A stretch of 64,000 bases of DNA from Candidatus Omnitrophota bacterium (GCA_044225175.1 JBGAJA010000005.1:17869-81868), one strand, 5' to 3'. Counted from the first letter of the stretch, positions 12,650-46,795 are shown. The notes: a model not told the origin generated them from the sequence alone. Translations and numbers: made by a program.

Positions 12650-15600
12650 ATGAAATTCCCGTTTAAAAAGCCTTTAATCCTGTGGATTCTCTTTGCCTTT
12701 GTGGTCAATACTTTTGGGCCCTTGCCAGCTTCTGCCCAAGAGATAACACTCCCAAAGCCTGGTGAGATGGTGCATTTAAGTACAGCTGTAAACCCACCCA
12801 TCCTAAAGGGACTCAAGGTCCACCCAGATAACCCTTTTAGGTTCGATTTTATCCTGGATCAGGGGGAACAGCCCGACGCTATTTCGACTAAATTGAAGGA
12901 AGATTCCACCCGTCTAATCAAGTACTTTTTAGCCTCTTTAACGATTCCCGAAGTGGATCTTTGGGTCAACTTAAGCCCCTATGAGAAAGACAGAATCATC
13001 CCAAACAGCTTTGGCTTAACCGAGATGGGGCGCGACCTTCTAGCCCAGGATTACATGCTCAAGCAGATTACCGCCAGCTTGATCTATCCAGAAGCCGAAG
13101 TGGGAAAGAGATTCTGGAAGCGAATCTATGAGGAAGCAGCCAAAAGGTATGGAAACACCAATATTCCAGTCAACACCTTCAACAAGGTTTGGATAGTTCC
13201 TGAGAAGGCGGTTGTCTATGAGAACGCAAAGGCTGAGACAGCTTATGTGGTTGAGTCCAGGCTCAAGGTTATGCTGGAAGAAGATTACCTATCCAAAGCC
13301 AAGAATGACCTTCAATCTAAAGCCAACAGCCCGTCGCTAAATGCCTCTAATTTAGGATCTCAAATCATCCGAGAAATCGTCCTTCCAGAGCTGATCAAAG
13401 AGGTGAATGAAGGTGCCAACTTTGCCCAGCTCAGACAAGTCTACAGCAGTCTAATCTTAGCTACGTGGTACAAGAAAAAGATCAAAGACAGCATTCTATC
13501 CCAAGTCTATTCAGACAAGAATAAAGTCTCCGGAATTGATATTAATGATCCAGCCCAAAAGGACAAGATCTATCAGCAGTATATCCAAGCTTTCAAAAAG
13601 GGCGTCTACAACTACATCAAGGAAGAAATTGATCCAGCAACTCAGCAAGCTATTCCTAGGAAATATTTCTCAGGAGGAGCTAAGTTTGGCAATTTGGCTA
13701 TGACAACTACAAACCAATTTCCTCAAGTTATTCCTGCTGGTTTAGTTGCTATCCAAGCCGAAATTAAGAGTAGTAATCCAGAAGGAAAGACAAATGCGGC
13801 AATGATAGCCCCTCTAACTGCTGGAGAAAAGTTTGTATCAGAATTGGACGATAAAATTATTCTTGATGGCCAAGGGCGAATTAGGTACGCCGCTGGACAT
13901 CCTACACCAATTGTTAAACCATTGTTTACATTCCTAGCTGAGCGTCATGGTGAGACTTTTGCAAATCTTGACGAACGGGCGCAGGGAGTTGCTGATGAGA
14001 ACCATTTAAATGAATCAACGCCGCATGGATTGGATCAAGGCAGAGATTCCGCCAAAGGATTATTCCAACGAGCAGATATTCAAGAAATGATTCGAAAGAG
14101 AATTCCTATTGTTGTCCTAACGAGTGGGAAAAAGCGAACGACGCAGGCCGCAGAACCCTTTATTAGACGCGTAGAAGAAGCAGGTGGGATTATTGAATAT
14201 GCCCCAGAGGAATTGATGAAAGGCGCTTCTGAAATAAATTTTGGAGCTGTGGAAAATAAAAAACTATCTCATTTTTCTCCAGAAGAAATTGAGATTCTTA
14301 ATCAGTATAGAAAACAATTAAGTGCAACTGCCAAATTCAAAGGCGGTGAAAGTTTTTTAGAATTGTTAATCAAGATCAAGAAATGGTTAGAAGAGTTAAA
14401 TAGGCTTTATGCCGGCCGGACAGTCGTGCTATTTGGACATGGTACACAACTAAAAGCAGTTCAAACCTTGCTGGGAGATCCATTGATAGTAGATCCTTCG
14501 GGATATATTAATCGAAATGCCTACGTAATTCCTAATGGCAAGATTATTGAATTACATAGTCCAGCCATGGCTGCCCCAGCCATAAAATCTACTTTCGATG
14601 GATCAGCTCTAAAGTATAGCTCTGATTCTATAATCCAAAACGCACCAGAATTTGAAAGGGTTGATATGTTTCTTGATTGGTATAAGGCCAATCGAGAAAA
14701 ATTACCAGCCAAAGATGGTTATAGAGAATTCTTAAGTGCTTCTTATACGGCTAACGTTTTAATGCATGCAGGTAAGATCACAATAGAAAGGTTGGAAGAA
14801 TTTCAAAGAGAGGCAGGTGCTTATGAATATGGTCAAGAATCTGCTGTAATCCAGAATGCTCCGGAATTTGATGATGTAGAGAAATTCTTAAAATGGTATG
14901 ACGACAAACATGAACAACTGCGGTCTAAGGACCATCCTGAAGAATTTTTATCTAGAAGTTACACCTTTCAAGTCTTGAGACGTTGGGGAAAAATTAAGCA
15001 AAAGAAATTCCAGAGTATTTTGAGGCATATTATCTCTTATGAATACGCCCAGGAGTCTATAGTTATTAAGCATGCCCCAAAATTTGAGGACGTGGAAGCC
15101 TATCTTAAATGGTATAGAACTAATCGAGAACAATTGCCATTTAAAGATGATCCTAAGAAATTCTTAACTGCTGGTTCTGTTGTTATGGCATTGATGCATG
15201 CTGGAAAGATTGATAAAGAAAATTTTCAAGATTTTCAAAGGCATGTAGGAGCTTATGAATATGCTCAGGAATCCGAAATTATACTCAGTGCTCCAGAATT
15301 TAATGATGTAGGATATTTTTTAAAATGGTTTAGAACGAATGGAGAGAAATTAAGATCTAAAGAAAATCCTGAGATATTTATAAGTGCAAGTTATGCCGCG
15401 CTTTGTTTAATGTATGCCAGAAAGATTAAACGCGAGAAATTGGAGCATTTTCAAAGGCAGGCTGGAGCTTACGAGTATGCCCAGGAATCTGCGATTATAC
15501 AAAGTGCACCAGAATTTAATGAGATAAGCGAATTTATAAAATGGTATAGAGCAAATCGTGTGCTACTGCGCTCAAAAGAGCATCCAGAAGAATCTTTAAG

Positions 15601-18600
15601 CGGAAGTTATACGGCTCAAGTTTTAATGCATGCAGGTAAGATTCCTTCAGAAAGATTAACAAAGTTTCAGTTACATGTGGGAGCCTATCAACGCGCAATA
15701 GATGAAGAGAAAATAATTACAGCAGAAATGCAAAGAATTTGGAAAGAGTCGATTCACAAAGAACTCTCAGGGCTCCCTCGAATCAAAGCCGCCTTTAATC
15801 CGCAACTATTATTAAATAAAAGAATCTCAAAAGGTCCATCCAAACCATTAGGAGCGGAATATCGCAATCTAATCCTCACATATGCGTATGAGTATTATGG
15901 AGAAAAAGAAGAAGCTTCGATAAACCCGGCTATGGCTTCCAATCTGGGAAACGTTTCTGTAGCAGAGAGAGCTTCCTATCTTGTTTATCGATATTTATTG
16001 TTGGCTTTATATCAACTGCGTGGAAGTGGTGAATATTTGGATCGTCGTGCAATCATGGATCATTTAATGAAAAATTCAGATTATAAAAGGGAGGTTTTTA
16101 ATCCTAATTCAGGCTGGGTTGATATTAATTTTAGGAAAACTGGCATTTTAGGAGTGGGTCTTATTATTAAAATGCCAGATGAGAAGAAATTTAAGTTAAC
16201 AGAAGCCGGAATTGCTTTTATGGAACGATCTTATCGATTAACAGGTGATGCTTTCATTTTAGCTTTAAAAGATCAACAAAAACAATATGCTCAAGGTTCA
16301 ATAGATTCTAAGAGCGGGGAAGATCCTGTTGAACTGGTTAGATATCCCAAAGATTTCAATATTCTTAATAAAGTTAAACTAAAAATTGCTATTGCGGACA
16401 GCGTTGTTCAAAAGACAGTCGATTCTAAATTACAATATGTGGTTAATTTAGAAGAGGTAATTGAGAAATATTCTGAAGGATTATCGCCTAGATACTTAAT
16501 ACAAGCACAACAACTTTCTAAGTTAATAGAAAAACAACTTGTAGCCTTTGGCTTTACCAAGGCTAGAGATATGGGTCTTGATAAATCAAATTTATATAGT
16601 AGAGACCGTTCCTATAATCTTGATTTGATTGCAAATCCAAACATCATTAGAACCCAAGATGAAATAAATTTTGAACCTTATCGCAATTTTCTACTTGCTT
16701 TGCATAGGCTCAATTCTGAAGAAATAAAAGATTCCTATAGCCCTCAAGAGGTTTGGAAAAAGATTCAAGTGCTCTCGCGAGAAATGGAATTGCAAGTAGT
16801 GTTTTCTTCGGTAACTGCAAAACAACTTAAAAGTGCTTATGAATCTATGGCTCAAAGGGGTGTTTTATTAATAGAAAGAACTGAGAAAGGGTATAGGTTA
16901 AGTTCTGAAGGATTGAAATTCATGCAAGAAAATGGGAATTTGATAAAGGAAAGTTTGCTTAAGGCTCTAAAAAGACATTTGTATGATATAGAACAATACG
17001 AGTTAAGAAGGGAATGGTTAAGATTGCCGCAAGCTGGTGGGACATTGAACAATGCTCCTACAGGTGATCAAGTTTATAAACCTAAGTTATTATCTGAAGT
17101 TGAATTCAGAAGTATAGAAGAAATATTCGAAGCGTCATCGCACCCAGAAGTAGGCCAGTGGTTAACTTCTCAAGATATTGTTGCTTTTGAAGGACATCAA
17201 ATTGGCAAGGACAGAATTCTTAAAGCTTTAAAGTCTCCTTTTAGAACTAGTCTTGAGAGTATGGGATTGGCAAATACAGTTTTTTATCCTGTCAAAGTTA
17301 ATCAACCCATGTTAATTCAGAAAGATTTTGAGCAATTAATCAGCAAAAGAAAAGATGAAGGAAATTTCAATATTCTCATTTATCAAATTGGACTAGGTGA
17401 GGAAGGTTTTCTTGAAACTAGAGATATTTTTAACGCTTTAAAAAATGCGTTTCATCAAGCGGGGATATCTCAAGAAGATCAACAAAAGTGGAAAGTTACA
17501 TTTATTGGTGTTGATGTCATTAAAACTATTGTGGATGATTTTATTCAGAAATTTTCTGTAAAGACTGATTTCCAGAGCAATATTTTGACCATTAGAGCGG
17601 ATGCTTTGGTAGAGGACCAGATGAGATGGTTAGGAGAGAAGTTTAAGTCAGATTATTTGTTCTTTCGTAATGTAGCCTATGGAAATTATCGAGCGTCTAG
17701 AGGTCATTTAAAAAGCTATATCAATGTTGTAGAGACGCTTGCTATTTATCTGGGTACCAAAAATATACTTAAACATCTAAGTGTTCCAGAAACTCGTTTT
17801 GTAATTGAGCCTGCCCAAGAATTTGAAAACACCCAGAATTATGTCTTCCATGCCCCAGGAACACGCATCGTAACATTGAAACATTATGATCCCACAAAAG
17901 AATTTTTAGATCTAAACAATGTGATTAACACAGGGACAGGAATATATAAGGTATTAGATCCAGGTGCAATGGACAGAGAAGGTCTGCAATATTTTCTTGA
18001 TCATGTTACTGAATTTGAAAAGCCTGTGGCTGACCAAGCTCAAAAGGCCCCCTCTCTTTCTAGTTATTCTACTTTGAAACTTAATGATCGCAGCAATTTA
18101 TCAATGACCCTTATAGGCTCAAATCCAGGATCTCGAGCAGATTATATTAAGGTGGGGAATAGGAAAGACTATAAGTATGGATTTACTCGAGAAGAATTGC
18201 TTCAGCGTGAGGCGGCTTTGATGCAGGTGTTATCGACAGATCAAAGATATAATCAAATAAGAAAATATCTTCCAGTTTTTAAAGGTTTGGGACGTCTTGA
18301 TATTTCTGATGTACGTAATGTGATACCGCGTCTGCCTAGGCGTTCTTCAATTCCAGATGTTCCTCCGAGGTTTTTTCAAGAAGAGGATTTCTTAGGTTCA
18401 TATATGGTAACAGAGGATGCTGGTGATCCGATATATGCTATTGCCAATGAAGTTAGGGAAGGAAAACTGACCGAAGATGACTTGTTGAAAACAATGTCCT
18501 TGTTAGTTCAATCAATCTACGATTTTCATCATGCTGGGATTGCTTTTGGAGACCTCACTCCAGATGAAATTTTTATAGCACCCTCTACAGAGAAGGTGAC

Positions 18601-21100
18601 TATTATTGATTATGGTTTGGCAATGATTGATGAGGATAGAGATTTTGGTTATGAGAATCTAAAATCTTTTGGATTAGATAGATGGGAAGGTAGATCTGAT
18701 TATGGGGGTGGAGGTCCTGATTGGTTTAAGCGGGACGTAAGAACTGTGTTGACAATTTTGGATGCCATGACGCCAAATTCTAAATTTGGAAATTTTTTTA
18801 TAAGCCAGTTTAATATTGAAACAGTGCTTAAGGATTTTGACAATAATCCCTTATCTATATCAGATGTATTGTCGAAAGTTCAGGATATAGAACGTCAATG
18901 GTATGAGCATTCCAATGCGGCCATGACTGCTAAATTGCCCGTTGGAGTCGTGCAGTATTGGAGAGACTTGCCAAAACCTTGGGAATCGACTCTTGAGCGT
19001 TATCCTAGTCATCATCAAACGTTAATGGACAGAATGGATGCAATCACTAAAAGGGTTCGTAAATTTGCACAAGGAAAGGCAATTACTCTGACTGAGATTT
19101 GTTGTGGAACAGGTAAGTTGTTTGCTTCTTTAGTTCAATTGCCCGGTGTCACAAAGGCTGTTGCTATTGATATTAATGCCAAGGCTTTAGATAGTTTGAA
19201 AGATCGATTGCATGGAATTGAATCAAAAACTTCCGATATTAGCGTTTTTGAAGGTGACATCAATGGTCCGCTGGCCAAAGACATTGTGCCAAACTCCGAT
19301 GTCATTGTGATTAACGATGCATTAATGCATATGCCTGATTTAGAAAAGGTGTTGGACTTGGTTGCTGAGCGTTTGTCGGAAGGTGGTTTATTCATGGGAA
19401 GTGGTATTTCGCGTGAAGGCTTATTTAAAGAAACTCCCATTTTGGGACCTCTTTGGTATGTAGGATATCGTTTTATTCTTCCTCAATTCGAAAGGGTTGG
19501 TTTAGGAGCGCTTGCTAACAGGGTCGTGCAGTGGGAATCGCTTCGTATCCGCCTTACAGCTCAAAGTCAAAGAGAGATTAAGGAGATGCTAGGAAAAAGA
19601 TTTGATATTGAAGAGATCACTGTAAAAGGACGTCACTATCAATTTACCGTCAGAAAAAAAGATGGAAAAATAGAAGATAGCGCTCAAATATCTGAGGAAT
19701 CTGTGAAGACCCCGGAAAATATGGTAAAGGTTCCTGTCACCCAAGAGGAGTTGGTTGGTTTTATCGGGGATATTCGAACTAAGATGCAAGCTATTTACGC
19801 GCGTAGTAATGATCCAACGAACAGTTCGTATTGGCATGTTTTTGATGAGATCGTAAATACATATAAAGAAGAAGTTAATGCGTCAGACAATCAATTGAAA
19901 ATGTTTGCTGATTTATATACTGAAACGAGTTTAATAGGGCCGCTCATTCCTCGTCCCAAAGAAGCCAAACATGTGCTTTTAGCTATGGCCATGTTTTTAA
20001 TGCTTGCCAATCATAGGAAGGAAAATGTATATACGAGCGAAGTATTCAATGAATTAAGAAATCTTATTGATGACTATAACAAACAATCCTTTGTAACTTT
20101 TCCTTTCAGTTTGTCCTCGCTATTTGTAATCGCACTAACGCCATACTTCCATGATCCAGACTTATTTGTTGAGTTATGGAATAAATTAGACCAACTTCCA
20201 GATGATATTAGTCCACAAGCAAAATTTTTATCTATGTTTTCGGTCTCTGCTCATTTAGGAGTAGTTCGTGTTGATGGAGACGATGATTTTAAGATAATTT
20301 ATCAAAAGATCGAGGGAATTTTGGCTGACAAATCACATCCCGATCAAATTCCAGACTCTTTAAAGAGAGTTCTATTAAACTCTATTGCTAAAGTTTTGCC
20401 TTCCATTTATCACCCTAATCATAAGGACGTTTATTCAGGCTTTCATCGTATGATTGGATGGTCATCTGGTTTTCGAGAGAAATTTTTAAATTTACTTACA
20501 AAGCATAAAGATTTGATCTGTGATATTTATTATGAATATTTTTCAAATTCTGATACTACGGATGATCCTATTCTGGCAGGGCTCGGCTTTAGTTTTTATT
20601 TAAAAGCAGAAAAAGAGTTATTGAGTAAAGTTTTGCGAGACAAAATACTTCAAATTACTGGATCACAACAATTACCACCGCTTAACGTATTAATTTCTGA
20701 TAGCCGTTTCCATGAAATATTAAAGGAAAGTCCTTTATACTCCAGATTAAAAGCTAATTTTTTTATTAAATATCTGCGACAATTTGTCGAGCTGAAAGAA
20801 GATAGTCCAACAGCTGTCGGTATTGAAGATCAACAATCAGTAAGCCCACAGCCTGGTTCCAGCCCAGCCATGGCGGTACGGACGGAAGCAAAGCAAGGGG
20901 GGGTTGATTTTACGGCAAATAAAACTCCTTTAGAGGTTCAAAATGTAGGAGGCGACATTCAATTTCATATTGATCTTGCCATGATGAAACAATTGCAAGC
21001 TGCTCCGGGGTTTTATCCTGTCATTATGAATATAACCCCGCTAAAAGATTTAAAGGTATTTTTAGACGTAGAGACGACCGGCCGGTCGTCTCTACAATAA
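12650..21100 (+). CDS. Giant secreted multidomain protein, paralog 1 of a 3-member family. Domains: conserved N-module, histidine-phosphatase-like, five tandem ~72-aa repeats, protein-kinase-like, SAM-methyltransferase
   Basis: Single ORF of about 2816 aa counted from the signal peptide MKFPFKKPLILWILFAFVVNTFGPLPASAQE. The ORF track start at 12608 is probably upstream of the real start. The N-terminal 340 aa are paralogous to 26159.. and 42980.. and the C-terminal 60 aa are paralogous to the C-termini of the other two. Motifs: LAERHGETFAN (RHGE...N) and LFGHGTQ; HAGIAFGDLTPDEIF...IIDYGLA; LTEICCGTGK...VIVINDALMH...GGLFMG. Confidence 0.8.
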   Translation: MKFPFKKPLILWILFAFVVNTFGPLPASAQEITLPKPGEMVHLSTAVNPPILKGLKVHPDNPFRFDFILDQGEQPDAISTKLKEDSTRLIKYFLASLTIPEVDLWVNLSPYEKDRIIPNSFGLTEMGRDLLAQDYMLKQITASLIYPEAEVGKRFWKRIYEEAAKRYGNTNIPVNTFNKVWIVPEKAVVYENAKAETAYVVESRLKVMLEEDYLSKAKNDLQSKANSPSLNASNLGSQIIREIVLPELIKEVNEGANFAQLRQVYSSLILATWYKKKIKDSILSQVYSDKNKVSGIDINDPAQKDKIYQQYIQAFKKGVYNYIKEEIDPATQQAIPRKYFSGGAKFGNLAMTTTNQFPQVIPAGLVAIQAEIKSSNPEGKTNAAMIAPLTAGEKFVSELDDKIILDGQGRIRYAAGHPTPIVKPLFTFLAERHGETFANLDERAQGVADENHLNESTPHGLDQGRDSAKGLFQRADIQEMIRKRIPIVVLTSGKKRTTQAAEPFIRRVEEAGGIIEYAPEELMKGASEINFGAVENKKLSHFSPEEIEILNQYRKQLSATAKFKGGESFLELLIKIKKWLEELNRLYAGRTVVLFGHGTQLKAVQTLLGDPLIVDPSGYINRNAYVIPNGKIIELHSPAMAAPAIKSTFDGSALKYSSDSIIQNAPEFERVDMFLDWYKANREKLPAKDGYREFLSASYTANVLMHAGKITIERLEEFQREAGAYEYGQESAVIQNAPEFDDVEKFLKWYDDKHEQLRSKDHPEEFLSRSYTFQVLRRWGKIKQKKFQSILRHIISYEYAQESIVIKHAPKFEDVEAYLKWYRTNREQLPFKDDPKKFLTAGSVVMALMHAGKIDKENFQDFQRHVGAYEYAQESEIILSAPEFNDVGYFLKWFRTNGEKLRSKENPEIFISASYAALCLMYARKIKREKLEHFQRQAGAYEYAQESAIIQSAPEFNEISEFIKWYRANRVLLRSKEHPEESLSGSYTAQVLMHAGKIPSERLTKFQLHVGAYQRAIDEEKIITAEMQRIWKESIHKELSGLPRIKAAFNPQLLLNKRISKGPSKPLGAEYRNLILTYAYEYYGEKEEASINPAMASNLGNVSVAERASYLVYRYLLLALYQLRGSGEYLDRRAIMDHLMKNSDYKREVFNPNSGWVDINFRKTGILGVGLIIKMPDEKKFKLTEAGIAFMERSYRLTGDAFILALKDQQKQYAQGSIDSKSGEDPVELVRYPKDFNILNKVKLKIAIADSVVQKTVDSKLQYVVNLEEVIEKYSEGLSPRYLIQAQQLSKLIEKQLVAFGFTKARDMGLDKSNLYSRDRSYNLDLIANPNIIRTQDEINFEPYRNFLLALHRLNSEEIKDSYSPQEVWKKIQVLSREMELQVVFSSVTAKQLKSAYESMAQRGVLLIERTEKGYRLSSEGLKFMQENGNLIKESLLKALKRHLYDIEQYELRREWLRLPQAGGTLNNAPTGDQVYKPKLLSEVEFRSIEEIFEASSHPEVGQWLTSQDIVAFEGHQIGKDRILKALKSPFRTSLESMGLANTVFYPVKVNQPMLIQKDFEQLISKRKDEGNFNILIYQIGLGEEGFLETRDIFNALKNAFHQAGISQEDQQKWKVTFIGVDVIKTIVDDFIQKFSVKTDFQSNILTIRADALVEDQMRWLGEKFKSDYLFFRNVAYGNYRASRGHLKSYINVVETLAIYLGTKNILKHLSVPETRFVIEPAQEFENTQNYVFHAPGTRIVTLKHYDPTKEFLDLNNVINTGTGIYKVLDPGAMDREGLQYFLDHVTEFEKPVADQAQKAPSLSSYSTLKLNDRSNLSMTLIGSNPGSRADYIKVGNRKDYKYGFTREELLQREAALMQVLSTDQRYNQIRKYLPVFKGLGRLDISDVRNVIPRLPRRSSIPDVPPRFFQEEDFLGSYMVTEDAGDPIYAIANEVREGKLTEDDLLKTMSLLVQSIYDFHHAGIAFGDLTPDEIFIAPSTEKVTIIDYGLAMIDEDRDFGYENLKSFGLDRWEGRSDYGGGGPDWFKRDVRTVLTILDAMTPNSKFGNFFISQFNIETVLKDFDNNPLSISDVLSKVQDIERQWYEHSNAAMTAKLPVGVVQYWRDLPKPWESTLERYPSHHQTLMDRMDAITKRVRKFAQGKAITLTEICCGTGKLFASLVQLPGVTKAVAIDINAKALDSLKDRLHGIESKTSDISVFEGDINGPLAKDIVPNSDVIVINDALMHMPDLEKVLDLVAERLSEGGLFMGSGISREGLFKETPILGPLWYVGYRFILPQFERVGLGALANRVVQWESLRIRLTAQSQREIKEMLGKRFDIEEITVKGRHYQFTVRKKDGKIEDSAQISEESVKTPENMVKVPVTQEELVGFIGDIRTKMQAIYARSNDPTNSSYWHVFDEIVNTYKEEVNASDNQLKMFADLYTETSLIGPLIPRPKEAKHVLLAMAMFLMLANHRKENVYTSEVFNELRNLIDDYNKQSFVTFPFSLSSLFVIALTPYFHDPDLFVELWNKLDQLPDDISPQAKFLSMFSVSAHLGVVRVDGDDDFKIIYQKIEGILADKSHPDQIPDSLKRVLLNSIAKVLPSIYHPNHKDVYSGFHRMIGWSSGFREKFLNLLTKHKDLICDIYYEYFSNSDTTDDPILAGLGFSFYLKAEKELLSKVLRDKILQITGSQQLPPLNVLISDSRFHEILKESPLYSRLKANFFIKYLRQFVELKEDSPTAVGIEDQQSVSPQPGSSPAMAVRTEAKQGGVDFTANKTPLEVQNVGGDIQFHIDLAMMKQLQAAPGFYPVIMNITPLKDLKVFLDVETTGRSSLQ
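14630..15710 (+). repeat. Five in-frame tandem coding repeats of about 213-219 bp (~72 aa) inside giant paralog 1
   Basis: Repeating unit SAPEF(N/D)DVExFLKWY(R/D)xNxExLRSKxxPEEFLSxSYTAxVLMHAGKIxxExLxxFQRxAGAYEYAQES. Unit starts are near 14637, 14848, 15066, 15290 and 15503. Confidence 0.75.
21068..21095. repeat. 28-bp GC-rich perfect palindrome GTAGAGACGACCGGCCGGTCGTCTCTAC, copy 1; it overlaps the last codons and stop of giant paralog 1
   Basis: Perfect inverted repeat. Identical copy at 25092-25119. It encodes ...VETTGRSSLQ* and likely acts as a terminator hairpin. Confidence 0.7.
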
Positions 21101-25082: not shown

Positions 25083-25091
25083 TTTTTTAAT

Positions 25092-25119
25092 GTAGAGACG
25101 ACCGGCCGGTCGTCTCTAC
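25092..25119. repeat. 28-bp GC-rich perfect palindrome GTAGAGACGACCGGCCGGTCGTCTCTAC, copy 2; terminator-like, after korB
   Basis: Identical to 21068-21095. Preceded by an A/T-rich stretch. Confidence 0.7.
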
Positions 25120-26158: not shown

Positions 26159-29100
26159 ATGCGAAGACTAATAGTCGCTCTAATCTTGGTTTGCTTTATT
26201 ATAAGCTCTTTGATTCCTATGCCTGCCAATGCCCAGGAATTTGCTTTGCCTGTCCCTGGGACGATGATTCATCTAAGTTCCCAATACACTCCAGCCCATT
26301 TAGCTGGCCTTGTGATCCACCCCGAAGATCCATTCAAATTTGATTTTTTAATTCATCGTGGCGATCAATTCGTAGGGGATGGGCTTGCCCCATCCCAAGA
26401 AGGGCGAATGCAAGATTCGCCCCTACAAGATAAACAGGTGGTCTATTCAAAATTAATTAAATACTTCCTAGCTTCACTAACCGTCCCCGATGAAGACCAA
26501 TGGGTAAATTTATCTCCCTATGAGAAGGAGCGTATCATTAATGAGAATTTTGGTAAAACAGAGATGGGGCGAGATCTGTTGGCCCAGGACTATCTATTGA
26601 AACAGATCACCGCATCCATGATTTATCCCCAAGACAAGTTAGGAGAGAAGTTTTGGGAGAAGGTGTACAGGCAAGCATGGGAGAAGTACAAGACAACCAA
26701 TATCCCAGTAAATACGTTTAATAAAGTATGGATAGTTCCCGATGAAGCAGCCGTGTACGAATCAGGGAATACAGTGTATGTGTTAAAGAACCATTTAAAA
26801 GTCATGTTAGAAGAAGATTACCTAGCCAAGAAAAAGGTGTCTGACACCTTTTTGGATGGAGCAGGTGTTAAAAAGGTGTCAGACACCTTTTTGACAAGCC
26901 AGGTGATGCGGCAGATCATTTTGCCGGAGTTGGAGCGTGAAGTTAATGAAGGGAAGAACTTTGCAAATCTTAGGCAGATCTATAGTGGGATGATCTTAGC
27001 TACATGGTACAAACGAAGCCTTAAGGAATCCATTCTTTCTAAAGCCTATGCCAATAAATCGAAGGTCAAGGGGGTCAATCAGGTTGATACCAAGGCCAAT
27101 GAGGATATATATCAGCAATATTTGAAATCCTTTAAGAAGGGAGTATTTAACTACATCAAAGAGGATGTGGATAAGTATTCGAAACAGGCTATTCCTAGGA
27201 AGTATTTTTCAGGTGGAATGACCCATGGGTTAGAGAAAGTGAATGTTTATAGTTCAGATAAAGCCATGCCGGCTGAATATCGTCCTGATGCCGCGACGCT
27301 ATCAGGCCTTGATATAGCTCAGGTATTACTAAGAACGGATAGGGAAATAACAGATATAAGAAATGATGCTAGTAGAAGAATAGACATCAATTTGTCTGAA
27401 TTTATTTATAAATTCTTGTTAACTAAGTCAGGAATATACAGATTATTTAAAGGAAATCCCCCTATTCAAATGTCTAGATCATGGAACATCAAAAGAGAAA
27501 AGAAGAGTGAAGATCAAGAATTGCCAGACCGTAGTTATTATGAGCAATTGAATGATGAAAATGATGCTAAATCTTTTGATGAATTGATGGCGCAGCTATT
27601 GCCTCAAGTCCTAAATAATAAGATTCCAGGCATTCTTTATAAGCCCAATCAAGCAGGAAATGGGCGAGGAATATTCTTTATTGAGAGAAATTCAGAGGGT
27701 GGTTTAACAGTAACAATGCTTTCAAGACCAAAAAGACAAGGAGAGTTGTCTCCAGAGGAACTTACTCAGATTCTTAGTCCTGGTATAGAAGTCCGAACAA
27801 GTTTAGAAGAAGAAATCATGCAGTTTGATCTTCCAAAGACTATGGGTGAGAATCGTCACAGAGAGATTTTAAAGAATTTGTGGAGTTATTTATCGACAAG
27901 AGAAGGAGCTTATGATTCTGGCATCATTCAAGTGATGGAGTCTTTTGTAAAGGTTTCCAACCCGCAGGAACACAAGCGTCGTGCCTTTGATACTAGGTTT
28001 GTATTTCATGGAAATTTATCTTCTGGACGTATTAAATTTATTTCTAATGAATCAATTGGAAGGGTAGGTTCTTCGTCATACTTTTCTAATTTGGGTGGTA
28101 GTCCCAATCTTTCAGATCATCCTTATGGATTTAAAGGGGAATCAAGGCCGTATTGGTATAATAGCCAGGATATGTTTAAGCCTGTATTTGATGCTTTTCC
28201 AGAGTTGTTTGATTCTTTTAAGAATGCAAAGGCTTCTGAGGAGAAAAGAAAATTTATTGCTGACACCTACAAAAGACTTGAGGAACAATTTAGATACTTA
28301 ACCGAACGATTAAAATCCACTGGAGCTAATTTAGATTTAATGGTGGATGGACAATTTGACTTAATGTGGAAGAAACCCTTTAAAGTCGGGGATTTTCCTG
28401 AGCCGATTTTGGTTGAATCATGGATCAATCTATTAGATCCAGGAAAAGATTTGTCTGGAATTAAGTTTCAATTAGAAGCGGATAAAGATCATGCTATGGT
28501 GATTGCTGTTGGTCAAAAAGAGAAGTTTATACTTCCTCATGGGGTATCGTGGATCAAAATAGGAGAAGTTCCTATTGAAGTCACTTGCAGAGCTAGTGAG
28601 ATTTATTTGAATGCCTATAGGATTGGCTGGCATGGCCCTATTTTAAAAGATGGTTCAATCGATTTGAATGATTTAACTAATACACAAGTGCCTATTGTGG
28701 TTAATAGGTTGCCAGGTAATACCAATATATTAATTATAGAAAATAAATCGTACGAACCTTTAGGAGTTATTCCAAATTATTCAGAAGAATCATTAGGAGT
28801 TAAAAGGCATGGATTGGCTTTGTTTAAGGATCAATCATCTATTTTGTTGTTTAAGAAAGGGCGAGAACAAGATTTTATAATCATGGGGGATTACTTTAAA
28901 GTCAAATTCTCTCAAGAGGGCATTTATTTCTCATCGATGGCATTTGGAATCGAAGATGATTTTATAAAACAAGGAGAGTCGAAGGATTATGACTTGAGAA
29001 ATGGGACAGCTTTTACACTTGAAGTTTCATCTCATGATCCTCGCCGCATCATTATTAGAAATAAACGTACCATCCCATTATATATTTCCAATATTCCGGG

Positions 29101-38042: not shown

Positions 38043-38055
38043 TAAATAGGAATAT

Positions 38056-40019: not shown

Positions 40020-40036
40020 AACAATAGGAGAAACAC

Positions 40037-41371: not shown

Positions 41372-41421
41372 GCAAAAGATCCTTTGTTTTTTTGGAAACA
41401 TTAAGAGGAAACAAAGTATAC

Positions 41422-41450
41422 TTGCAAAGTATGACCAAATAGGGTAGTAT
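41422..41450 (+). promoter_or_regulatory. Candidate sigma70-type promoter for rpmE-prfA: TTGCAA, 17-bp spacer, TAGTAT
   Basis: Hexamers at 41422-41427 and 41445-41450. A structured leader of about 100 nt follows before the rpmE RBS (GGAGG). Confidence 0.3.
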
Positions 41451-41551
41451 ATCGCCCTTTGAAAACACAGGTTGATTCGCCACAGGCGGATCAAATTCTA
41501 TCCCGTCAAAGCGGGCCGCCTCAAGCGGAAAAATACCATGGAGGTAGGACA

Positions 41552-41755
41552 ATGAAAGCTGAAATTCACCCAAATTATGAAGAAACCACAATTAGCTGTG
41601 CTTGTGGAAACATTATTCATACGCGTACAACCAAGAAGAACATCCGCGTTGAAATCTGTTCCCAATGTCATCCTTTCTTCACAGGATCCAAGAAATTAGT
41701 GGATACTGCAGGCCGTATCGAGCGATTCAACAAACGTTATGCTAAAGGAAAATGA
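41552..41755 (+). CDS. rpmE: 50S ribosomal protein L31
   Basis: 67 aa. [27 protein letters not shown]...[10 protein letters not shown] zinc-ribbon L31 signature. GGAGG RBS 8 nt upstream. The N-terminal extension in the ORF track is spurious. Confidence 0.9.
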
Positions 41756-42830: not shown

Positions 42831-42979
42831 AAGATTATCACTAATCTTTATATATAAAATTTCCATAAAGTATTAATTAGCAATAGTTTAACAATAAACA
42901 GGTAAGCGTTTTCTCAAAAGCTCTTAGGAGCGATTGACAAGGCTTGCCCTGTGTTGCACACTTGTAGTAATTAATAAGT

Positions 42980-45900
42980 GTGGAGAGTAATATGAAAACC
43001 CCAAAAGCCATTTCTATTATTGTTTTAACAGCCTTCTTGACAACATCTCTCAATATTTCCGGGTATGCTAAAGACGTTTCGTTATTACCCGCTCCAGGTG
43101 TTATGGTTCACTTAAGCCCTGAATTTACTCCTGCCCATTTAAAAGGAATTGTTATTCACCCTGATAATGCTCTTAAATTCGATTTCATCATCAATAAAGG
43201 CGACAAGCCTTTAGATGAAGTGACAAAAAAGGCAGAATATACCAAACTTATTAAATATTTTTTAGCTTCCTTAGCCGTGCCTGATGACAATCAATGGGTC
43301 AATCTTTCGCCTTATGAAAAGAACCGTATTATTAAGGAAGACTTTGGAAAAACTGAAATGGGGCGAGATTTACTAGCGCAAGATTACCTACTTAAACAAA
43401 TTACAGCTTCTTTAATATACCCTCAAGACAAGTTAGGCCAGAAATTCTGGGATGAAGTTTATGCAAAAGCCCAGCAGCAATTTGGCACAACCAATATTCC
43501 AGTTAATACGTTCAATAAAGTTTGGATTGTCCCAGATGATGCTGTGATTTATGAAAAAGGTAATACAGCATATGTCATTAAGCATCATTTGAAGGTCATG
43601 CTAGAAGAGGACTATTTGTCTTTAGGAAAGCATGGTGGTATTCAGGAAAAATCGATCCGTGATTCCAATAAAGCCCATGCGATCGGTTCACAGGTCGTTC
43701 GTGAAGTTGTTTTACCTCAGCTTGAAAAGGAAGTTAATGAGGGGCAAAATTTTGCTCCTTTAAGACAGGTCTATAGCGGTATGCTCCTAGCTGCGTGGTA
43801 TAAAAGAGCTTTAAAGGAATCATTGCTTTCAAAGATCTATGCGGATAAATCCAAAATTAAGGGAATCAATCAGGACCCTAAGAACAATGAGGCTATTTAT
43901 CAGCAGTATCTCAAGGCTTTCAAAAAAGGTGTATTTAACTTTATTAAGGAAGATGTGGATAAGTATTCGAAGCAAACTATTCCAAGAAAGTACTTCTCTG
44001 GTGGAACAATTGGGGATGGTGCCATGTTTGCCAAGGTAGTGCGTATTATAAAGACCCTTGATCCGGCTCAAGCAGCCAGTTTAGCTAAATCTCTTGCAAG
44101 CGATGACTTAGCTCAAGTAATGGCTCATGAGACCCAAGATTCAGCTATGAGTGGAACAGAAGTCAATTTCTCTTGGAATAATGGAAAGAATTCATTCCAA
44201 GTAAAAAGAGGTACCATGTTAGGTGGTTATAAACTACATAATATCCTTATGAATGGTAAGCCAACTACAGTTAAGCTTGGCAATTTACAGGGAAGTATCC
44301 TTAGAATAGAAGGGGCTGAAACGTTGATTATTGGAAAAGATAAAACATCCAATCAATATGTATTTATTACGGGTGATCGTGATCCAAGTATGCCAAGGAA
44401 CACAGTGTTTTATTTTGAAGAAGGTAAGGGCTCTGCTCCGAATCTTTTAGTAAATAAGTCTGTTAGGAATGGAAATTTTGAGACGATTGCAATATTAATG
44501 CCTGCTCAAGGAGTAGTTGGTAAACAAGCATTGGATGTACAGAATTTTTCTGATCCTTCTTTGCTACTCAGTGATGAGACTGGTTCTCAAAAGTTACCAG
44601 TTGGAAAACAAATAAAAGTCTTAGATTATGCTCAATTAACCAGTAAAACTGCTGGCCAAGCCCTGTCAACATTGGATTTGCCTCCCGCTATACCTATGCC
44701 TGGTGCCACAGAAAGAACTATAAGGCAAAGAATTATAACGGATATTCATGTTGCTCACGTGTTAGATAGAATCAGGGAAAAAACAAACAGAGAGCCTGAT
44801 CCTGGTGTTTTAGATGGCTTTATAGATGTTGTACGGGAAGAGTCCAATGATATAAGGGCTATTGAATTAGCCATAGAAGCTATTTTAGGGGCGCATATAG
44901 AAGATGAATATTTGATGGATTCTTTTTTAACAGAGTTAAAGAAGATAGATTCCACTGAGAGTGCTAATAATTACATTTATTTGTTATCTGGAATGCTGAA
45001 AGACATGTCTGGTTTAGAATTAAGTATGAATGAAAAAGTTCGTAATGTGATCTTGAATCTATTCTACATTCAAGGTTTAAATAGTGCTCCAGAATTTAGA
45101 AGTCAATTTGAAAAGTGGTTAAAGAGATTTATAGAAATAGGTCGAAAGGGTAGAAGTGATGTAGAAATCGATCCTATGTGGCAGGATATCAAAGCAGAAG
45201 ATAAGGAAGTCTTTCAATCTTTGCCATACTCTATAGGATTAAGTCTCTACAAGGTTCGAATTGCTATGCAGTCAAATCTTCATATCAATGAAGCTTATAG
45301 AGATTACGAATCAACCATCAATATGGTTAATCAAGCAATTGCTCCACAGGGTGCTTCACAGAAGGTTCTTCCATCGAGCTTGGTTGTAGGAACAGAAGCG
45401 CTAATTCTCAATAGTTTTCTAACTTTAATCCCATTTGTTCTCGATTCATTAAATTTATTAATAGATGATTTTAAGAGTACAAGTGTGGATGACAAATTGA
45501 CACGTGTTAAAGATCTATTAATTAAAGTTGAATTTTTGCACGGAAAAATGATACAGGAGATTTCTAGTGAAAGTATTAATGGCGGTATGGGACTTTCTCA
45601 AAGGGGGAGGGATTTAAAAGAGCTGTTAGGAAATGTAGACGATCTGAAAGTGTTTCTTGATGAGGAAATTGCGAAAGTCGAGCTAATGTTGGGCGAAAGA
45701 GGTAATATGCATCAAATAGATCGTAATAAATATAGCGCTCAACGATTGAATCGAACATTAAGAATGGTTTTTTATTCTTTTAAGAAAAGATGGAGAGGTT
45801 TATCGTCTAAGTTAGATAGCCAAGGAATAGAAATTGAAGATATAGATAATGTATTTCGTCTTAGTTTAAAGAGACAAGAAATTGTTAATGAATTGATCCA

Positions 45901-46795
45901 AGAACATTTATCAGTAGAGGGGGCAGAAGTTGATTCTACATCGTCCCTTAAAGAAATAGGAATGTTTGATGATGATGTTATTTCTATGTTAGATATTTTA
46001 GAAGAGAGATATAGATTTGTTGTGCCAACGCAAGACATTAAATTATTTAGAAATAGACTTTCTGATGAGAAAAACAATTTAACTGTGAATGATTTTTATG
46101 CCTTGATTGAGCCTTATTGGTCTACTGATGAAGCTATGTCAGTGTTTGAAGTAAAAAAACCTATGGATAAAACGATACTTAAAGAACCTAAAAGACTTCG
46201 AGTTTTAGATTTATTGCAAGCCATTGAAGAAAAACCGGCCTCACTTATAGAAGATAAGCTGCAGGCTAGAGATTTGGCAAAAGAAATTAAAGCTGTGATA
46301 GATATGGCTACTGATCTTAGTAAGTTGAAGAGTGTATTAGAAGGTATGTGGTATGAAAACGAATACAAAGCTATCCCAAAAGAAATTCCCGAAATTAAAC
46401 AGAGTCTTGATTTAATCGATGAAATTTTTCGATTAAGAGAGCAATTATTGGTTAGCTCAGATTCGAAGATTCTTGATGATGTTATCAGCATAAAAAATCA
46501 ATTAAGTAGGCTTGTCAAAGAGGCGGTTAGGAAGGATATGGCGGATGACGCAATGAAATCTATTGAACCTCAGTATAAAGATCCCTTAGGTGGTATTGAT
46601 TTAAATGCTGCGAATTTGAATTTACAGATTAAGCGTGATGGTAATGGGGTGCCTCTTCCTATTAGTCAGCAAAATTTAGAAAGTATTCATATTGAAGGAC
46701 TGATTCCAGTGATTTTAGATATTAGACCTGCTTTGGGAGCGCTTCTTTTATCTGAATTAACCTCTGGTGTACCTCAATTATTAGCTAAAAAGTAA
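42980..46795 (+). CDS. Giant secreted protein, paralog 3: conserved N- and C-modules with a distinct central region of unknown function
   Basis: 1271 aa. Signal peptide; N-module LLPAPGVMVHLSPEFTPAHLKGIVIHPDNALKFDFII... paralogous to 12650.. and 26159... C-terminal GGIDLNAANLNLQIKRDGNGVPLPISQQNLESIHIEGLIPVILDIRPA shared with paralog 2. Confidence 0.8.
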   Translation: MESNMKTPKAISIIVLTAFLTTSLNISGYAKDVSLLPAPGVMVHLSPEFTPAHLKGIVIHPDNALKFDFIINKGDKPLDEVTKKAEYTKLIKYFLASLAVPDDNQWVNLSPYEKNRIIKEDFGKTEMGRDLLAQDYLLKQITASLIYPQDKLGQKFWDEVYAKAQQQFGTTNIPVNTFNKVWIVPDDAVIYEKGNTAYVIKHHLKVMLEEDYLSLGKHGGIQEKSIRDSNKAHAIGSQVVREVVLPQLEKEVNEGQNFAPLRQVYSGMLLAAWYKRALKESLLSKIYADKSKIKGINQDPKNNEAIYQQYLKAFKKGVFNFIKEDVDKYSKQTIPRKYFSGGTIGDGAMFAKVVRIIKTLDPAQAASLAKSLASDDLAQVMAHETQDSAMSGTEVNFSWNNGKNSFQVKRGTMLGGYKLHNILMNGKPTTVKLGNLQGSILRIEGAETLIIGKDKTSNQYVFITGDRDPSMPRNTVFYFEEGKGSAPNLLVNKSVRNGNFETIAILMPAQGVVGKQALDVQNFSDPSLLLSDETGSQKLPVGKQIKVLDYAQLTSKTAGQALSTLDLPPAIPMPGATERTIRQRIITDIHVAHVLDRIREKTNREPDPGVLDGFIDVVREESNDIRAIELAIEAILGAHIEDEYLMDSFLTELKKIDSTESANNYIYLLSGMLKDMSGLELSMNEKVRNVILNLFYIQGLNSAPEFRSQFEKWLKRFIEIGRKGRSDVEIDPMWQDIKAEDKEVFQSLPYSIGLSLYKVRIAMQSNLHINEAYRDYESTINMVNQAIAPQGASQKVLPSSLVVGTEALILNSFLTLIPFVLDSLNLLIDDFKSTSVDDKLTRVKDLLIKVEFLHGKMIQEISSESINGGMGLSQRGRDLKELLGNVDDLKVFLDEEIAKVELMLGERGNMHQIDRNKYSAQRLNRTLRMVFYSFKKRWRGLSSKLDSQGIEIEDIDNVFRLSLKRQEIVNELIQEHLSVEGAEVDSTSSLKEIGMFDDDVISMLDILEERYRFVVPTQDIKLFRNRLSDEKNNLTVNDFYALIEPYWSTDEAMSVFEVKKPMDKTILKEPKRLRVLDLLQAIEEKPASLIEDKLQARDLAKEIKAVIDMATDLSKLKSVLEGMWYENEYKAIPKEIPEIKQSLDLIDEIFRLREQLLVSSDSKILDDVISIKNQLSRLVKEAVRKDMADDAMKSIEPQYKDPLGGIDLNAANLNLQIKRDGNGVPLPISQQNLESIHIEGLIPVILDIRPALGALLLSELTSGVPQLLAKK

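What the first reader, a model, noticed from the sequence alone, without database searches (positions are those of the whole stretch)
12650..46795. Three-member family of giant secreted modular proteins with shared N- and C-terminal modules and unrelated enzyme-like cores
ORFs 12650-21100 (~2816 aa), 26159-32371 (2070 aa) and 42980-46795 (1271 aa) all begin with a Sec-type signal peptide.
- Shared N-terminal module: about 340 aa, clearly homologous across the three. Conserved blocks include LPxPGxMxHLS...HP(D/E)xPFKFDF, LIKYFLASL(T/A)VP, NLSPYEK(E/D)RII...FG(K/L)TEMGRDLLAQDY(L/M)LKQITAS, NIPVNTFNKVWIVP, HLKVMLEEDYL, NF(A)xLRQ(I/V)YS, YQQY(L/I)(K/Q)(A/S)FKKGV(F/Y)N(Y/F)IKE and IPRKYFSGG.
- Shared C-terminal module: about 60 aa, GGIDxNxxNLNLQIKRDGxGVPLP...PVIL(E/D)I(K/R)PA.
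- Central regions: completely different in length and content, carrying different enzyme-like signatures.

This looks like a delivery and anchoring scaffold with swappable cargo, reminiscent of polymorphic toxin or effector systems. I do not recognise the N-module as any named domain. The three genes account for about 27% of this window.
Basis: partly seen in the sequence, partly recalled or inferred. Interest (0 to 1): 0.92.

Follow-up and report, generated by a model that had tools for sequence, protein, structure and literature searches.

The report
Omnitrophota exported scaffold-and-cargo protein family
The three large genes belong to a very large, apparently undescribed protein family of the candidate phylum Omnitrophota, in which a conserved head domain and a short conserved tail frame unrelated strings of modules, some of them recognisable cytoplasm-type enzymes, that appear to be exported from the cell.

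Summary
ORFs 12650-21100, 26159-32371 and 42980/42992-46795 share a ~330-aa N-module (53-62% identity) behind a Sec-type leader, and a ~60-aa C-terminal module. Their cores are unrelated.

The family is much larger than three members. It has at least 8,400 clusters at 50% identity. Almost all named hits are Omnitrophota MAGs, not Chlamydia, with several copies per genome.

- **Scaffold versus core:** N- and C-modules co-diverge, while 61 of 70 cores match no other core.
- **Core content:** enzymes of cytoplasmic type. Gene A has a histidine phosphatase, a kinase-like region and a SAM methyltransferase. Relatives carry PGK, a permuted enolase, GDH and HPr.

Two new features emerged:
- A [D/N]-x-A-M motif marks the inter-module linkers and is 10-15 times enriched.
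- Cysteine is nine-fold depleted (0.13% against 1.17%), which fits export.

Best reading: Sec-exported modular carriers, with the N-module and C-tag as handling modules and DxAM as a junction or processing motif. Their role is probably in host or prey interaction. The polymorphic-toxin analogy fails: there are no immunity genes and the C-terminus is conserved. Function is inferred, not shown.

The parts
12650..21100 (+). Gene A, 2816 aa: leader, N-module, about six modules, type-2 C-module
   Evidence: ORF, translation. An identical public gene call exists.
12650..12736 (+). A signal-peptide-like leader (aa 1-29, ...PASA|QE)
   Evidence: K-rich n-region, hydrophobic 19-mer scoring 1.89, and an A-x-A site. 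This is a heuristic; no SignalP was available.
12737..13678 (+). A N-module (aa 30-343, ends ...PRKYFSGG)
   Evidence: 53-56% identical to B and C. Matches the family profile.
13943..14467 (+). A histidine-phosphatase domain (aa 432-606), with RHGET and GHG motifs present
   Evidence: Pfam His_Phos_1, E 3.7e-13. Motifs read from the translation.
14630..15691 (+). A tandem 216-nt (72-aa) repeats, about 5 copies
   Evidence: the repeat finder families D1, D3 and D8; translation.
18401..18625 (+). A protein-kinase-like catalytic-loop region (aa 1918-1992; GDLTPDE and DYG)
   Evidence: Pfam Pkinase E 4.8e-6 on the isolated module, 26.6 bits, which is below the gathering score of 31.7.
19043..19552 (+). 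A SAM-dependent methyltransferase domain (aa 2132-2301; motif I EICCGTG)
   Evidence: Pfam Methyltransf_12/31/25/23/11, E 1e-9 to 3e-7.
20870..21097 (+). A C-module, type 2 (GGVDF...IQFHIDLAMMKQLQAAPGFYPVIMNITP)
13691..13702 (+). A junction motif NLAM (aa 348-351), just after the N-module
13793..13804 (+). A junction motif NAAM (aa 382-385)
14558..14569 (+). A junction motif SPAM (aa 637-640), after the His_Phos domain
15923..15934 (+). A junction motif NPAM (aa 1092-1095), after the 72-aa repeats
17960..17971 (+). A junction motif (D)PGAM (aa 1771-1774), before the kinase-like module
18914..18925 (+). A junction motif NAAM (aa 2089-2092), between the kinase-like and methyltransferase modules
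20861..20872 (+). A junction motif SPAM (aa 2738-2741), 9 aa before the GGVD of the C-module
26159..32371 (+). Gene B, 2070 aa: leader, N-module, three AM-delimited modules, type-1 C-module
26159..26233 (+). B signal-peptide-like leader (aa 1-25, ...PANA|QE)
26234..27217 (+). B N-module (aa 26-353)
   Evidence: AlphaFold2 model with pLDDT 78.5 and pTM 0.73. No PDB fold match.
27257..27268 (+). B junction motif DKAM
28487..28498 (+). B junction motif DHAM
30089..30100 (+). B junction motif DSAM
32141..32152 (+). B junction motif DAAM, 6 aa before GGID
32150..32368 (+). B C-module, type 1 (GGIDFNSSNLNLQIKRDGKGVPLP...GFVPVILEIKP)
42980..46795 (+). Gene C (1271 aa from GTG 42980; 1267 aa from ATG 42992 in the public call), lying between prfA and prmC
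42992..43069 (+). C signal-peptide-like leader (...SGYA|KD)
43070..44005 (+). C N-module (aa 31-342)
44015..44026 (+). C junction motif DGAM
44138..44149 (+). C junction motif DSAM
46127..46138 (+). C junction motif DEAM
46544..46555 (+). C junction motif DDAM, 13 aa before GGID
46553..46792 (+). C C-module, type 1

Best explanation
A, B and C are paralogues of a very large Omnitrophota-specific family of Sec-exported, almost cysteine-free modular proteins.

Each member is built in the same order:
1. a cleavable signal peptide;
2. a conserved ~330-aa alpha/beta N-domain of unknown fold;
3. a string of unrelated folded modules, often whole enzymes of cytoplasmic type, joined by flexible linkers that carry a [D/N]-x-A-M motif;
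4. a conserved ~60-aa C-terminal tag.

The N-domain and C-tag evolve together as a scaffold, while the cores are replaced module by module.

Most likely mechanism:
- The protein crosses the inner membrane by Sec.
- The N-domain and C-tag act as handling modules. They would be recognised by, or bound to, an as yet unidentified envelope partner for onward export, anchoring or display.
- The DxAM linkers are junction sites, possibly processing sites.
- The cargo acts outside the cytoplasm, plausibly at the interface with the host or prey cells on which Omnitrophota are thought to depend.

Shown: the architecture, family size, co-divergence of N and C, core turnover, motif enrichment and placement, and cysteine depletion.
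Inferred: export beyond the inner membrane, the handling role of N and C, cleavage at DxAM, and any role in host interaction.
For: Family and taxonomy:
- 1512 word-index hits, with named ones being Candidatus Omnitrophica/Omnitrophota.
- 8406 clusters at E ≤1e-3 and 6818 at E ≤1e-30 among 1.84 billion representatives, always matching at the N-terminus.
- At least 572 loci in GTDB species representatives, several per genome, with tandem arrays.

Architecture:
- 75 complete ORFs of 403-2451 aa (plus one spurious 18-aa stretch); at least 56 end in the C-module.
- The C-module is single-copy and always terminal. 70 of 84 C-bearing stretches also carry the N-module; the other 14 are mostly cut by a locus end or follow an interrupted family ORF.

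Scaffold versus cargo:
- The N-module's nearest neighbour has the same C subtype in 60 of 61 cases.
- 61 of 70 cores are orphans.
- The cores of A, B and C hit none of 370 members.
- C's core has no relative in 5.8 billion clusters.
- Shared modules are AM-bounded and sit at different positions.

Export:
- Leaders have K/R, a hydrophobic region and small-x-small in 230 of 234 members.
- There are no other clear transmembrane segments.
- Cys is 0.13% against 1.17% in 208,023 control residues. C has 0 Cys in 1271 aa.

Motif:
- [DN]xAM occurs at 2.0-2.1 per 1000 aa in the family, against 0.14-0.18 in controls.
- D or N is at -2 in 95 of 138 sites.
- It lies at Pfam domain borders and in low-pLDDT linkers.

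Cargo:
- His_Phos_1, kinase-like and methyltransferase domains in A.
- PGK (E 3e-107), enolase, GDH, AlaDH/PNT, HPr, receiver, PPDK_N, NUDIX, GH26 and GT5 in relatives.

Lifestyle context: Omnitrophota are proposed to be host-dependent or predatory, with exported long multi-enzyme proteins (PMC10066038; bioRxiv 10.1101/2023.11.21.568195; 10.64898/2026.06.07.730766).
Against: - No experiment or proteomic datum was examined for this family.
- Signal peptides were judged by a heuristic, not by SignalP.
- ATP- and SAM-dependent enzymes (PGK, kinase, methyltransferase) have no obvious substrates in a periplasm or outside the cell.
- No secretion machinery, protease or other gene is consistently linked to family genes.
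- AlphaFold2 gave only moderate confidence for the N-module (pLDDT 78.5), and 60-74 for the C-module with no confident docking.
- Some members have no strict DxAM motif, so it cannot be obligatory.
- Core 'replacement' cannot be fully separated from extreme divergence.
Confidence: 0.55

Rival explanations
1. Polyprotein precursors. The genes encode strings of enzymes that a dedicated protease cuts at D-x-A|M into separate functional proteins. The protease could be the N-module itself, which has invariant Ser and Lys but no His or Cys. The scaffold would serve only for synthesis and export.
For: - The motif is a short linear element in flexible linkers between folded modules.
- In member L056 the Met of the motif falls where the native Met1 of PGK would be, 18 aa before DFNVP.
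- Small residues follow the Met.
- West-Roberts et al. already speculated that Omnitrophota giant proteins are cleaved.
- The invariant polar residues of the N-module include S95, S129 and K124.
Against: - No protease fold or motif was found in the N-module.
- Some members lack the motif.
- A similar D-x-A-[MQ] stretch occurs inside the C-module, where it looks like a helix start. The motif may therefore be structural, a helix cap, rather than a cleavage site.
- There are no cleavage data.
Confidence: 0.2
2. Envelope-resident housekeeping proteins. The family is a periplasmic or outer-surface structural and enzymatic coat of the cell itself, with the N-module as a wall or outer-membrane anchor and no role in host or prey manipulation.
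For: - The genes lie among housekeeping genes and are co-oriented with them. C sits inside the prfA-prmC pair.
- There are many paralogues per genome.
- The invariant positions of the N-module are rich in aromatic residues (W, Y, F), as in binding domains.
- A surface 'coat' has been proposed for Velamenicoccus (PMC10066038).
Against: - Cores are almost never conserved between genomes, which is unusual for housekeeping functions.
- The cargo includes enzymes that need cytoplasmic cofactors.
Confidence: 0.15
3. A polymorphic toxin or effector system in the strict sense (CdiA, Rhs or MafB-like): N-terminal trafficking domain, variable toxin and cognate immunity gene.
For: - A conserved N-terminal region with variable remainder.
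- A short demarcation motif reminiscent of VENN or DPxGL.
- Cysteine depletion typical of secreted substrates.
Against: - The C-terminus is conserved and the variable part is internal.
- The downstream genes are radical-SAM/BATS, FTCD_C-FolD and PrmC, so there are no immunity candidates.
- No known trafficking, pre-toxin or toxin Pfam domain is present.
- Identifiable cargo is metabolic or regulatory.
- The paralogues are old, at 53-62% identity.
Confidence: 0.04
4. Cytoplasm-facing, membrane-tethered multi-enzyme proteins. The leader would be an uncleaved anchor and the enzymes would work in the cytoplasm.
For: The cargo domains are of cytoplasmic type and need ATP or SAM. The 2026 preprint reads many transmembrane-only long proteins this way.
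Against: - Positive charges precede the hydrophobic segment, and a small-x-small site follows it, in about 98% of members. That predicts the bulk of the protein lies outside.
- Nine-fold Cys depletion is not expected for cytoplasmic enzymes.
Confidence: 0.06

Closest known systems
Omnitrophota long or giant multi-enzyme proteins ('Archaeovorins', West-Roberts et al. 2023 bioRxiv 10.1101/2023.11.21.568195; 'multi-enzyme metabolic clusters', bioRxiv 10.64898/2026.06.07.730766)
   Same: - Same phylum.
- Signal peptide at the N-terminus.
- Unannotated N-terminal regions.
- Strings of cytoplasm-type domains (methyltransferase, NUDIX, kinases, sugar enzymes, receiver).
- An extracellular or host-directed role has been proposed.
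   Different: - Those proteins are 10,000 to 147,000 aa and mostly have many transmembrane helices and SecA-like domains. This family was seen here at about 0.4-2.8 kaa for complete members, with truncated ORFs above 3.6 kaa, and has no transmembrane helices.
- This family is defined by a conserved N-domain, a conserved C-tag, the DxAM junction motif and Cys depletion. In term searches of these two papers and of Seymour et al. 2023 (PMC10066038), plus one section read in full, I found no description of them.
Polymorphic toxins (CdiA, Rhs, MafB; Zhang et al. 2012, PMC3482391)
   Same: A conserved trafficking end plus hypervariable payload, and a short conserved motif at the boundary of exchangeable modules.
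   Different: Here the payload is internal rather than C-terminal, both ends are conserved, there are no immunity genes, there are no known toxin or trafficking domains, and the payloads look metabolic or regulatory.
Cargo families with a conserved C-terminal tag (T9SS CTD proteins; dockerin-bearing cellulosomal enzymes)
   Same: A Sec leader, diverse enzymes, and a small conserved C-terminal module shared by many paralogues. This suggests recognition by a common partner.
   Different: - There is no sequence match to Por_Secre_tail/CTD or dockerin models.
- The tag is shorter, about 60 aa.
- An additional large conserved N-domain is obligatory.
- T9SS is a Bacteroidota system (my knowledge).
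Two-partner-secretion TpsA exoproteins (FHA, ShlA, CdiA)
   Same: A Sec leader followed by a conserved ~250-300-aa N-terminal domain, then a very long variable passenger that is poor in cysteine.
   Different: The N-module is alpha/beta rather than a beta-helix, has no Haemagg_act hit, and no TpsB gene is adjacent.

Membership tests
Polymorphic toxin systems | Variable toxin domain at the extreme C-terminus | tested here: not met
   The C-terminal ~60 aa are the conserved module; the variable part is internal.
Polymorphic toxin systems | Cognate immunity gene immediately downstream (and orphan cassettes) | tested here: not met
   The downstream genes are radical SAM/BATS (21145), FTCD_C + FolD (32465, 32953) and PrmC (46801). 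No conserved neighbour was found in 80 loci.
Polymorphic toxin systems | Known N-terminal trafficking domain (TPS, PAAR, RHS, LXG, WXG100 and others) | tested here: not met
   No Pfam or NCBIfam hit on the N-module, even at E ≤10.
Polymorphic toxin systems | Conserved demarcation motif before exchangeable modules | tested here: inconclusive
   [D/N]xAM marks module borders and bounds shuffled modules, but it is unrelated to VENN or DPxGL and occurs many times per protein.
T9SS cargo | C-terminal domain matching Por_Secre_tail / T9SS CTD models | tested here: not met
   No Pfam or NCBIfam hit on the C-modules at E ≤10.
Two-partner secretion TpsA | TPS (Haemagg_act) beta-helical N-domain and linked TpsB | tested here: not met
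   No such hit. The model is alpha/beta with long helices. No Omp85-like neighbour.
Cellulosomal enzymes | Dockerin module | tested here: not met
   No PF00404 hit in A, B, C or the C-modules.
Omnitrophota giant proteins (Archaeovorin type) | Length above 30,000 aa with many transmembrane helices and SecA_DEAD-like domains | tested here: not met
   1271-2816 aa. Only the leader is clearly hydrophobic, with marginal segments at A 2480-2500 and C 796-828. No SecA domain.
Omnitrophota giant proteins (Archaeovorin type) | Signal peptide plus a mosaic of methyltransferase, NUDIX, kinase and sugar-enzyme domains | tested here: met
Sec-exported proteins | N-terminal n-h-c signal peptide with a small-x-small cleavage site | tested here: met
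   A ...ASA|QE, B ...ANA|QE, C ...GYA|KD, and 230 of 234 family members. This is a heuristic only. Supported by Cys depletion.
New family defined here (N-module / DxAM / C-module) | N-module directly after the leader AND a single terminal C-module | tested here: met
   All three window genes.

The most novel reading that the evidence does not exclude
The N-domain, the C-tag and the D-x-A-M linkers together define a phylum-specific export-and-processing pathway. Polyproteins made of captured cytoplasmic enzymes (PGK, enolase, kinases, methyltransferases) would be exported, handled through the N and C modules by an unknown envelope machinery, cut at DxA|M, and released onto or into host or prey cells. 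This would be a new kind of effector delivery system, and the small-scale key to the Omnitrophota giant proteins.
Probability: 0.15. Interest if true: 0.92.

Novelty: new variant of a known kind. Interest (0 to 1): 0.78.

Why it matters
Omnitrophota are uncultured, ultra-small, probably host-dependent bacteria. They are known for the longest predicted proteins of any organism, and the function of those proteins is unknown.

This family is a tractable version of the same phenomenon, at 0.4-3 kaa per protein. It has clear handles:
- a conserved domain of apparently new fold, present in thousands of proteins;
- a terminal tag;
- a linker motif;
- a compositional signature of export.

These handles make several questions directly testable:
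- Are such proteins exported?
- Are they processed?
- What recognises them?
- Why are glycolytic and regulatory enzymes placed outside the cytoplasm?

The N-module also deserves a domain-family model, since neither Pfam nor NCBIfam has one.

Tried and rejected
- **Pfam and NCBIfam on whole proteins and isolated modules:** nothing for the N- or C-modules, and nothing significant for the cores of B and C.
- **PDB sequence searches:** none with the N-module profile or with the cores.
- **Full-length AlphaFold2 of the 572-aa member P0027, to test N-C docking:** the C-module scored only pLDDT 60-74 with pTM 0.55, and no coordinates were available, so this is undetermined.
- **Internal translation starts at the Met of DxAM:** rejected. 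There is no Shine-Dalgarno sequence, and the GCN-ATG context differs from the AT-rich or SD context of real starts in the window.
- **A DNA-level recombination site at DxAM:** codons vary, although RAY-NNN-GCN-ATG cannot be formally excluded.
- **Conserved neighbour search in 80 loci:** the top cluster was antisense shadow ORFs of the N-module. The rest were generic families: receiver, ABC-F, MetH, GT2, histidine kinase and Rho.
- **Source look-ups:** the contig look-up for A found nothing on record. The cluster look-up gave no names.
- **Viral contigs:** three IMG/VR contigs carry family genes near a contig end, with no phage hallmark in the neighbouring ORFs scanned. They are probably host DNA.
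- **C-module search in the word-indexed database:** it returned only short contig-end fragments, so it says nothing about architecture.
- **Literature:** in term searches and one section read in full, I found no description of the N-module, the C-module, the motif or Cys depletion.

Full report
**Observation**

The window holds three long + strand ORFs at 12650-21100 (A, 2816 aa), 26159-32371 (B, 2070 aa) and 42980-46795 (C, 1271 aa) (translations). A, B and a version of C starting at ATG 42992 (1267 aa) are identical to public gene calls on a 186,673-bp NCBI contig.

- BLASTP shows a shared N-terminal region of about 350 aa. Identities are 53% for A/B, 56% for A/C and 59-62% for B/C, with E values of 1e-114 to 1e-139.
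- The shared C-terminal module is 60% identical between B and C (E 8e-18) and 26% identical between A and B (E 6e-6).
- The cores show no similarity.
- No fourth copy exists in the window.
- The similarity is not low complexity.

**Organism and family size**

- A search with B's N-module returned 1512 proteins. Almost all named ones are Candidatus Omnitrophica/Omnitrophota MAG 'hypothetical proteins', at up to about 64% identity.
- A profile search of 1.84 billion cluster representatives found 8406 proteins at E ≤1e-3 and 6818 at E ≤1e-30. Among the 150 best listed, the match always lies at the N-terminus.
Nearly all are labelled Omnitrophota. Some are auto-labelled 'uncultured Planctomycetales', and one is labelled Ca. 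Elulimicrobium.
- There are several copies per genome (for example at least 7 in JABDGZ01) and tandem arrays (three in L040).

The family is therefore not chlamydial and has far more than three members.

The window itself is ordinary chromosome. It carries a Mo-hydroxylase, PntAB, 2-oxoacid:ferredoxin oxidoreductase, FolD, PolA, glycogen synthase, Rho, RF1, PrmC, trp and men genes, and aconitase. Gene C is inserted between prfA and prmC. No secretion genes are present.

**Architecture of the family**

In 80 GTDB loci I found 75 complete N-module ORFs of 403-2451 aa, plus one spurious 18-aa stretch. At least 56 of them, by a crude regular expression, end in the C-module.

With HMMs, the C-module is single-copy and always at the extreme C-terminus. 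70 of 84 C-bearing ORF stretches also contain the N-module. The other 14 are mostly cut by a locus end or follow an interrupted family ORF.

The C-module has two subtypes:
- Type 1: GGIDxNxxxLNLQIKRDGxGVPLPxxQQ...GLxPVIxxIxP (B and C).
- Type 2: GGIDLT...IKFHLDPAMLxQLQNAPGFxPVIINIQP (A).

The N-module's closest relative carries the same C subtype in 60 of 61 cases. No permutation out of 2000 reached the observed difference in identity. N and C therefore co-diverge as one scaffold.

The cores behave quite differently:
- Only 6 of 2415 core pairs among 70 complete members show any similarity, and 61 cores are orphans.
- The cores of A, B and C hit none of 370 family members.
- C's core has no relative other than itself in the 5.8-billion-cluster database, within the limits of word-index sensitivity.

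**The N-module**

- It has no Pfam or NCBIfam model, even at E ≤10, and no PDB sequence relative.
- AlphaFold2 with 77 sequences gives pLDDT 78.5 and pTM 0.73. The model has three long beta-hairpins and several long helices, one of about 60 residues.
- The invariant residues are rich in W, Y and F and include S, K, D, E, N and R, but no H or C.

**Cores**

A carries three recognisable domains:
- a histidine phosphatase (E 4e-13), with the RHGET and GHG motifs intact;
- a kinase-like catalytic-loop region, which scores below Pfam's threshold, with GDLTPDE and DYG;
- a SAM methyltransferase (E 1e-9), with motif I EICCGTG.

A also has five 72-aa tandem repeats.

B and C have no significant domain hit. 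B has only a non-significant ATP-grasp hint. 'Enzyme-like' is therefore verified for A only.

A census of 29 long relatives found mostly cytoplasm-type enzymes and regulators: PGK (E 3e-107), enolase, glutamate dehydrogenase, AlaDH/PNT, receiver, PPDK_N, NUDIX, HPr, methyltransferases, RNAP alpha-CTD, cNMP-binding, GH26, starch synthase and UDPGP. In L076 the enolase is circularly permuted, with Enolase_C before Enolase_N.

**A junction motif**

Module borders carry [D/N]-x-A-M.
- Downstream of the N-module in A, B, C and 120 homologues, the dipeptide AM occurs 155 times against 43 expected. D is at -2 in 72 of 138 sites and N in 23 of 138. Small residues follow the Met.
- The density of [DN]xAM is 2.0-2.1 per 1000 aa in family proteins. 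It is 0.14 in 13,872 aa of other window ORFs and 0.18 in 256,865 aa of non-family ORFs of the loci.
- In A, AM sites bracket the His_Phos domain, the repeats, the kinase-like module and the methyltransferase module. In all three proteins, one site follows the N-module and one lies 6-13 aa before the C-module's GGID.
- L028 has twelve D-x-A-M-[TSIV] sites.
- In L056 the Met falls where the native Met1 of PGK would be.
- In the full-length model of P0027, the sites lie in or at the edge of low-pLDDT linkers.
- The few homologous core modules are bounded by AM sites and occupy different positions in different proteins. This is direct evidence for module-level shuffling.
- Codons for the motif vary and no Shine-Dalgarno sequence precedes it. 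Real starts in the window have AT-rich or SD contexts rather than GCN-ATG. Internal initiation is therefore unlikely.
- Whether the motif is cleaved is unknown. A D-x-A-[MQ] stretch inside the C-module suggests it may also be a helix-start element.

**Export**

- Leaders with K/R, a hydrophobic stretch and a small-x-small site occur in 230 of 234 members. A has ASA|QE, B has ANA|QE and C has GYA|KD.
- Apart from the leader there is no convincing transmembrane segment.
- Cysteine is 0.13% in 134,650 family residues against 1.17% in 208,023 control residues from the same loci. C has none in 1271 aa, mature B has one, and A has four.
- Such depletion is typical of proteins that leave the cytoplasm (my knowledge). 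It argues against a cytoplasm-facing topology.

**Interpretation**

The best-supported reading is a family of Sec-exported modular carriers.
- A co-evolving scaffold (N-domain + C-tag) is retained, while the cargo between them is exchanged module by module at DxAM linkers.
- I infer that N and C are handling modules, recognised by or bound to an unidentified envelope partner, and that the cargo acts outside the cytoplasm.
- The literature proposes that Omnitrophota are host-dependent or predatory and export long multi-enzyme proteins (PMC10066038; bioRxiv 10.1101/2023.11.21.568195; 10.64898/2026.06.07.730766). A role at the host or prey interface is therefore plausible but unproven.
- The main difficulty is why ATP- and SAM-dependent enzymes would be exported.

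Rivals are processed polyproteins, a self-directed envelope coat, strict polymorphic toxins and cytoplasm-facing tethered enzymes. The last two are contradicted by tests made here:
- Strict polymorphic toxins: there are no immunity genes, the C-terminus is conserved and no known trafficking domain is present.
- Cytoplasm-facing tethered enzymes: the charge distribution, the cleavage site and the Cys depletion all predict that the bulk lies outside.

**Novelty**

Exported multi-enzyme long proteins are known in this phylum. I did not find the conserved N-domain, the C-tag, the DxAM motif or the cysteine depletion described in the papers I could search. Neither module has a Pfam or NCBIfam model. 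I rate the finding a new variant of a known kind, with high interest for specialists.

**Limits**

- All evidence is computational.
- The signal peptides were called by a heuristic.
- The structure models have moderate confidence.
- Only PDB was searched for folds.
- The word-indexed searches miss distant relatives.

Noticed in passing
window 26831-26854 and 26866-26893 (inside gene B), and 9611-9634 (intergenic): A 24-nt perfect palindrome, AAAAAGGTGTCTGACACCTTTTT, looks like a bidirectional terminator next to the end of pntB. It also occurs twice in frame inside the N-module coding region of B, where it encodes KKVSDTFL twice in a variable, low-confidence loop. It could be a small mobile hairpin element that tolerates insertion in coding sequence.
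   Followed up: partly
window 21068-21100 and 25087-25119: A GC-rich palindrome, GTAGAGACGACCGGCCGGTCGTCTCTAC, supplies the last ten codons of gene A (...VETTGRSSLQ*). It recurs just after the oxidoreductase beta-subunit gene. It is a terminator-like repeat that has become coding at the end of A.
   Followed up: partly
window 41739-47562: Gene C sits between prfA (RF1) and prmC, a gene pair that is usually adjacent. Rho lies just upstream, and Rho is also near family genes in about five other loci, for example L004.
   Followed up: partly
L076:9875-14560: This family member contains a circularly permuted enolase. Enolase_C (aa 936-1250) precedes Enolase_N (aa 1269-1363), and the unit is bracketed by AM sites at 940 and 1360.
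   Followed up: partly
L056:3545-9226: This family member contains a complete phosphoglycerate kinase (aa 1112-1525, E 3e-107) inside an exported, cysteine-poor protein. The AM motif's Met coincides with the expected native start of PGK.
   Followed up: partly
window 14630-15691: About five tandem 216-nt (72-aa) repeats in gene A, 63-70% identical at the DNA level. They have no Pfam match and a consensus like ..IIQNAPEF..V..FLKWY..N.E.L.SK..PEEFLS.SYTA.VLMHAGKI.
   Followed up: no
window 7406-7436 and 63335-63365: A 31-nt inverted pair, 90% complementary (TCCGCCAAAGGTGGATCAGCCTCTGGCTGAA), lies at two intergenic or gene-boundary positions 56 kb apart. It is another dispersed short repeat.
   Followed up: no
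window 5159-6415 and 57393-60640: A 418-aa protein with a cadherin domain; a PIF1-like helicase followed by a DUF3857 protein. These are unrelated to the finding.
   Followed up: no
L081, L082, L083 (IMG/VR contigs): Three contigs classed as viral carry family genes near a contig end. Neighbouring ORFs gave no phage hallmark, only a radical SAM protein and unknowns. They are probably host DNA or flanks of a prophage.
   Followed up: partly
antisense strand of N-module regions in many loci (e.g. L037, L040): Long antisense 'shadow' ORFs of 120-350 aa overlap the conserved N-module coding sequence and cluster together in all-against-all BLAST. They are an artefact to beware of in gene calling.
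   Followed up: yes
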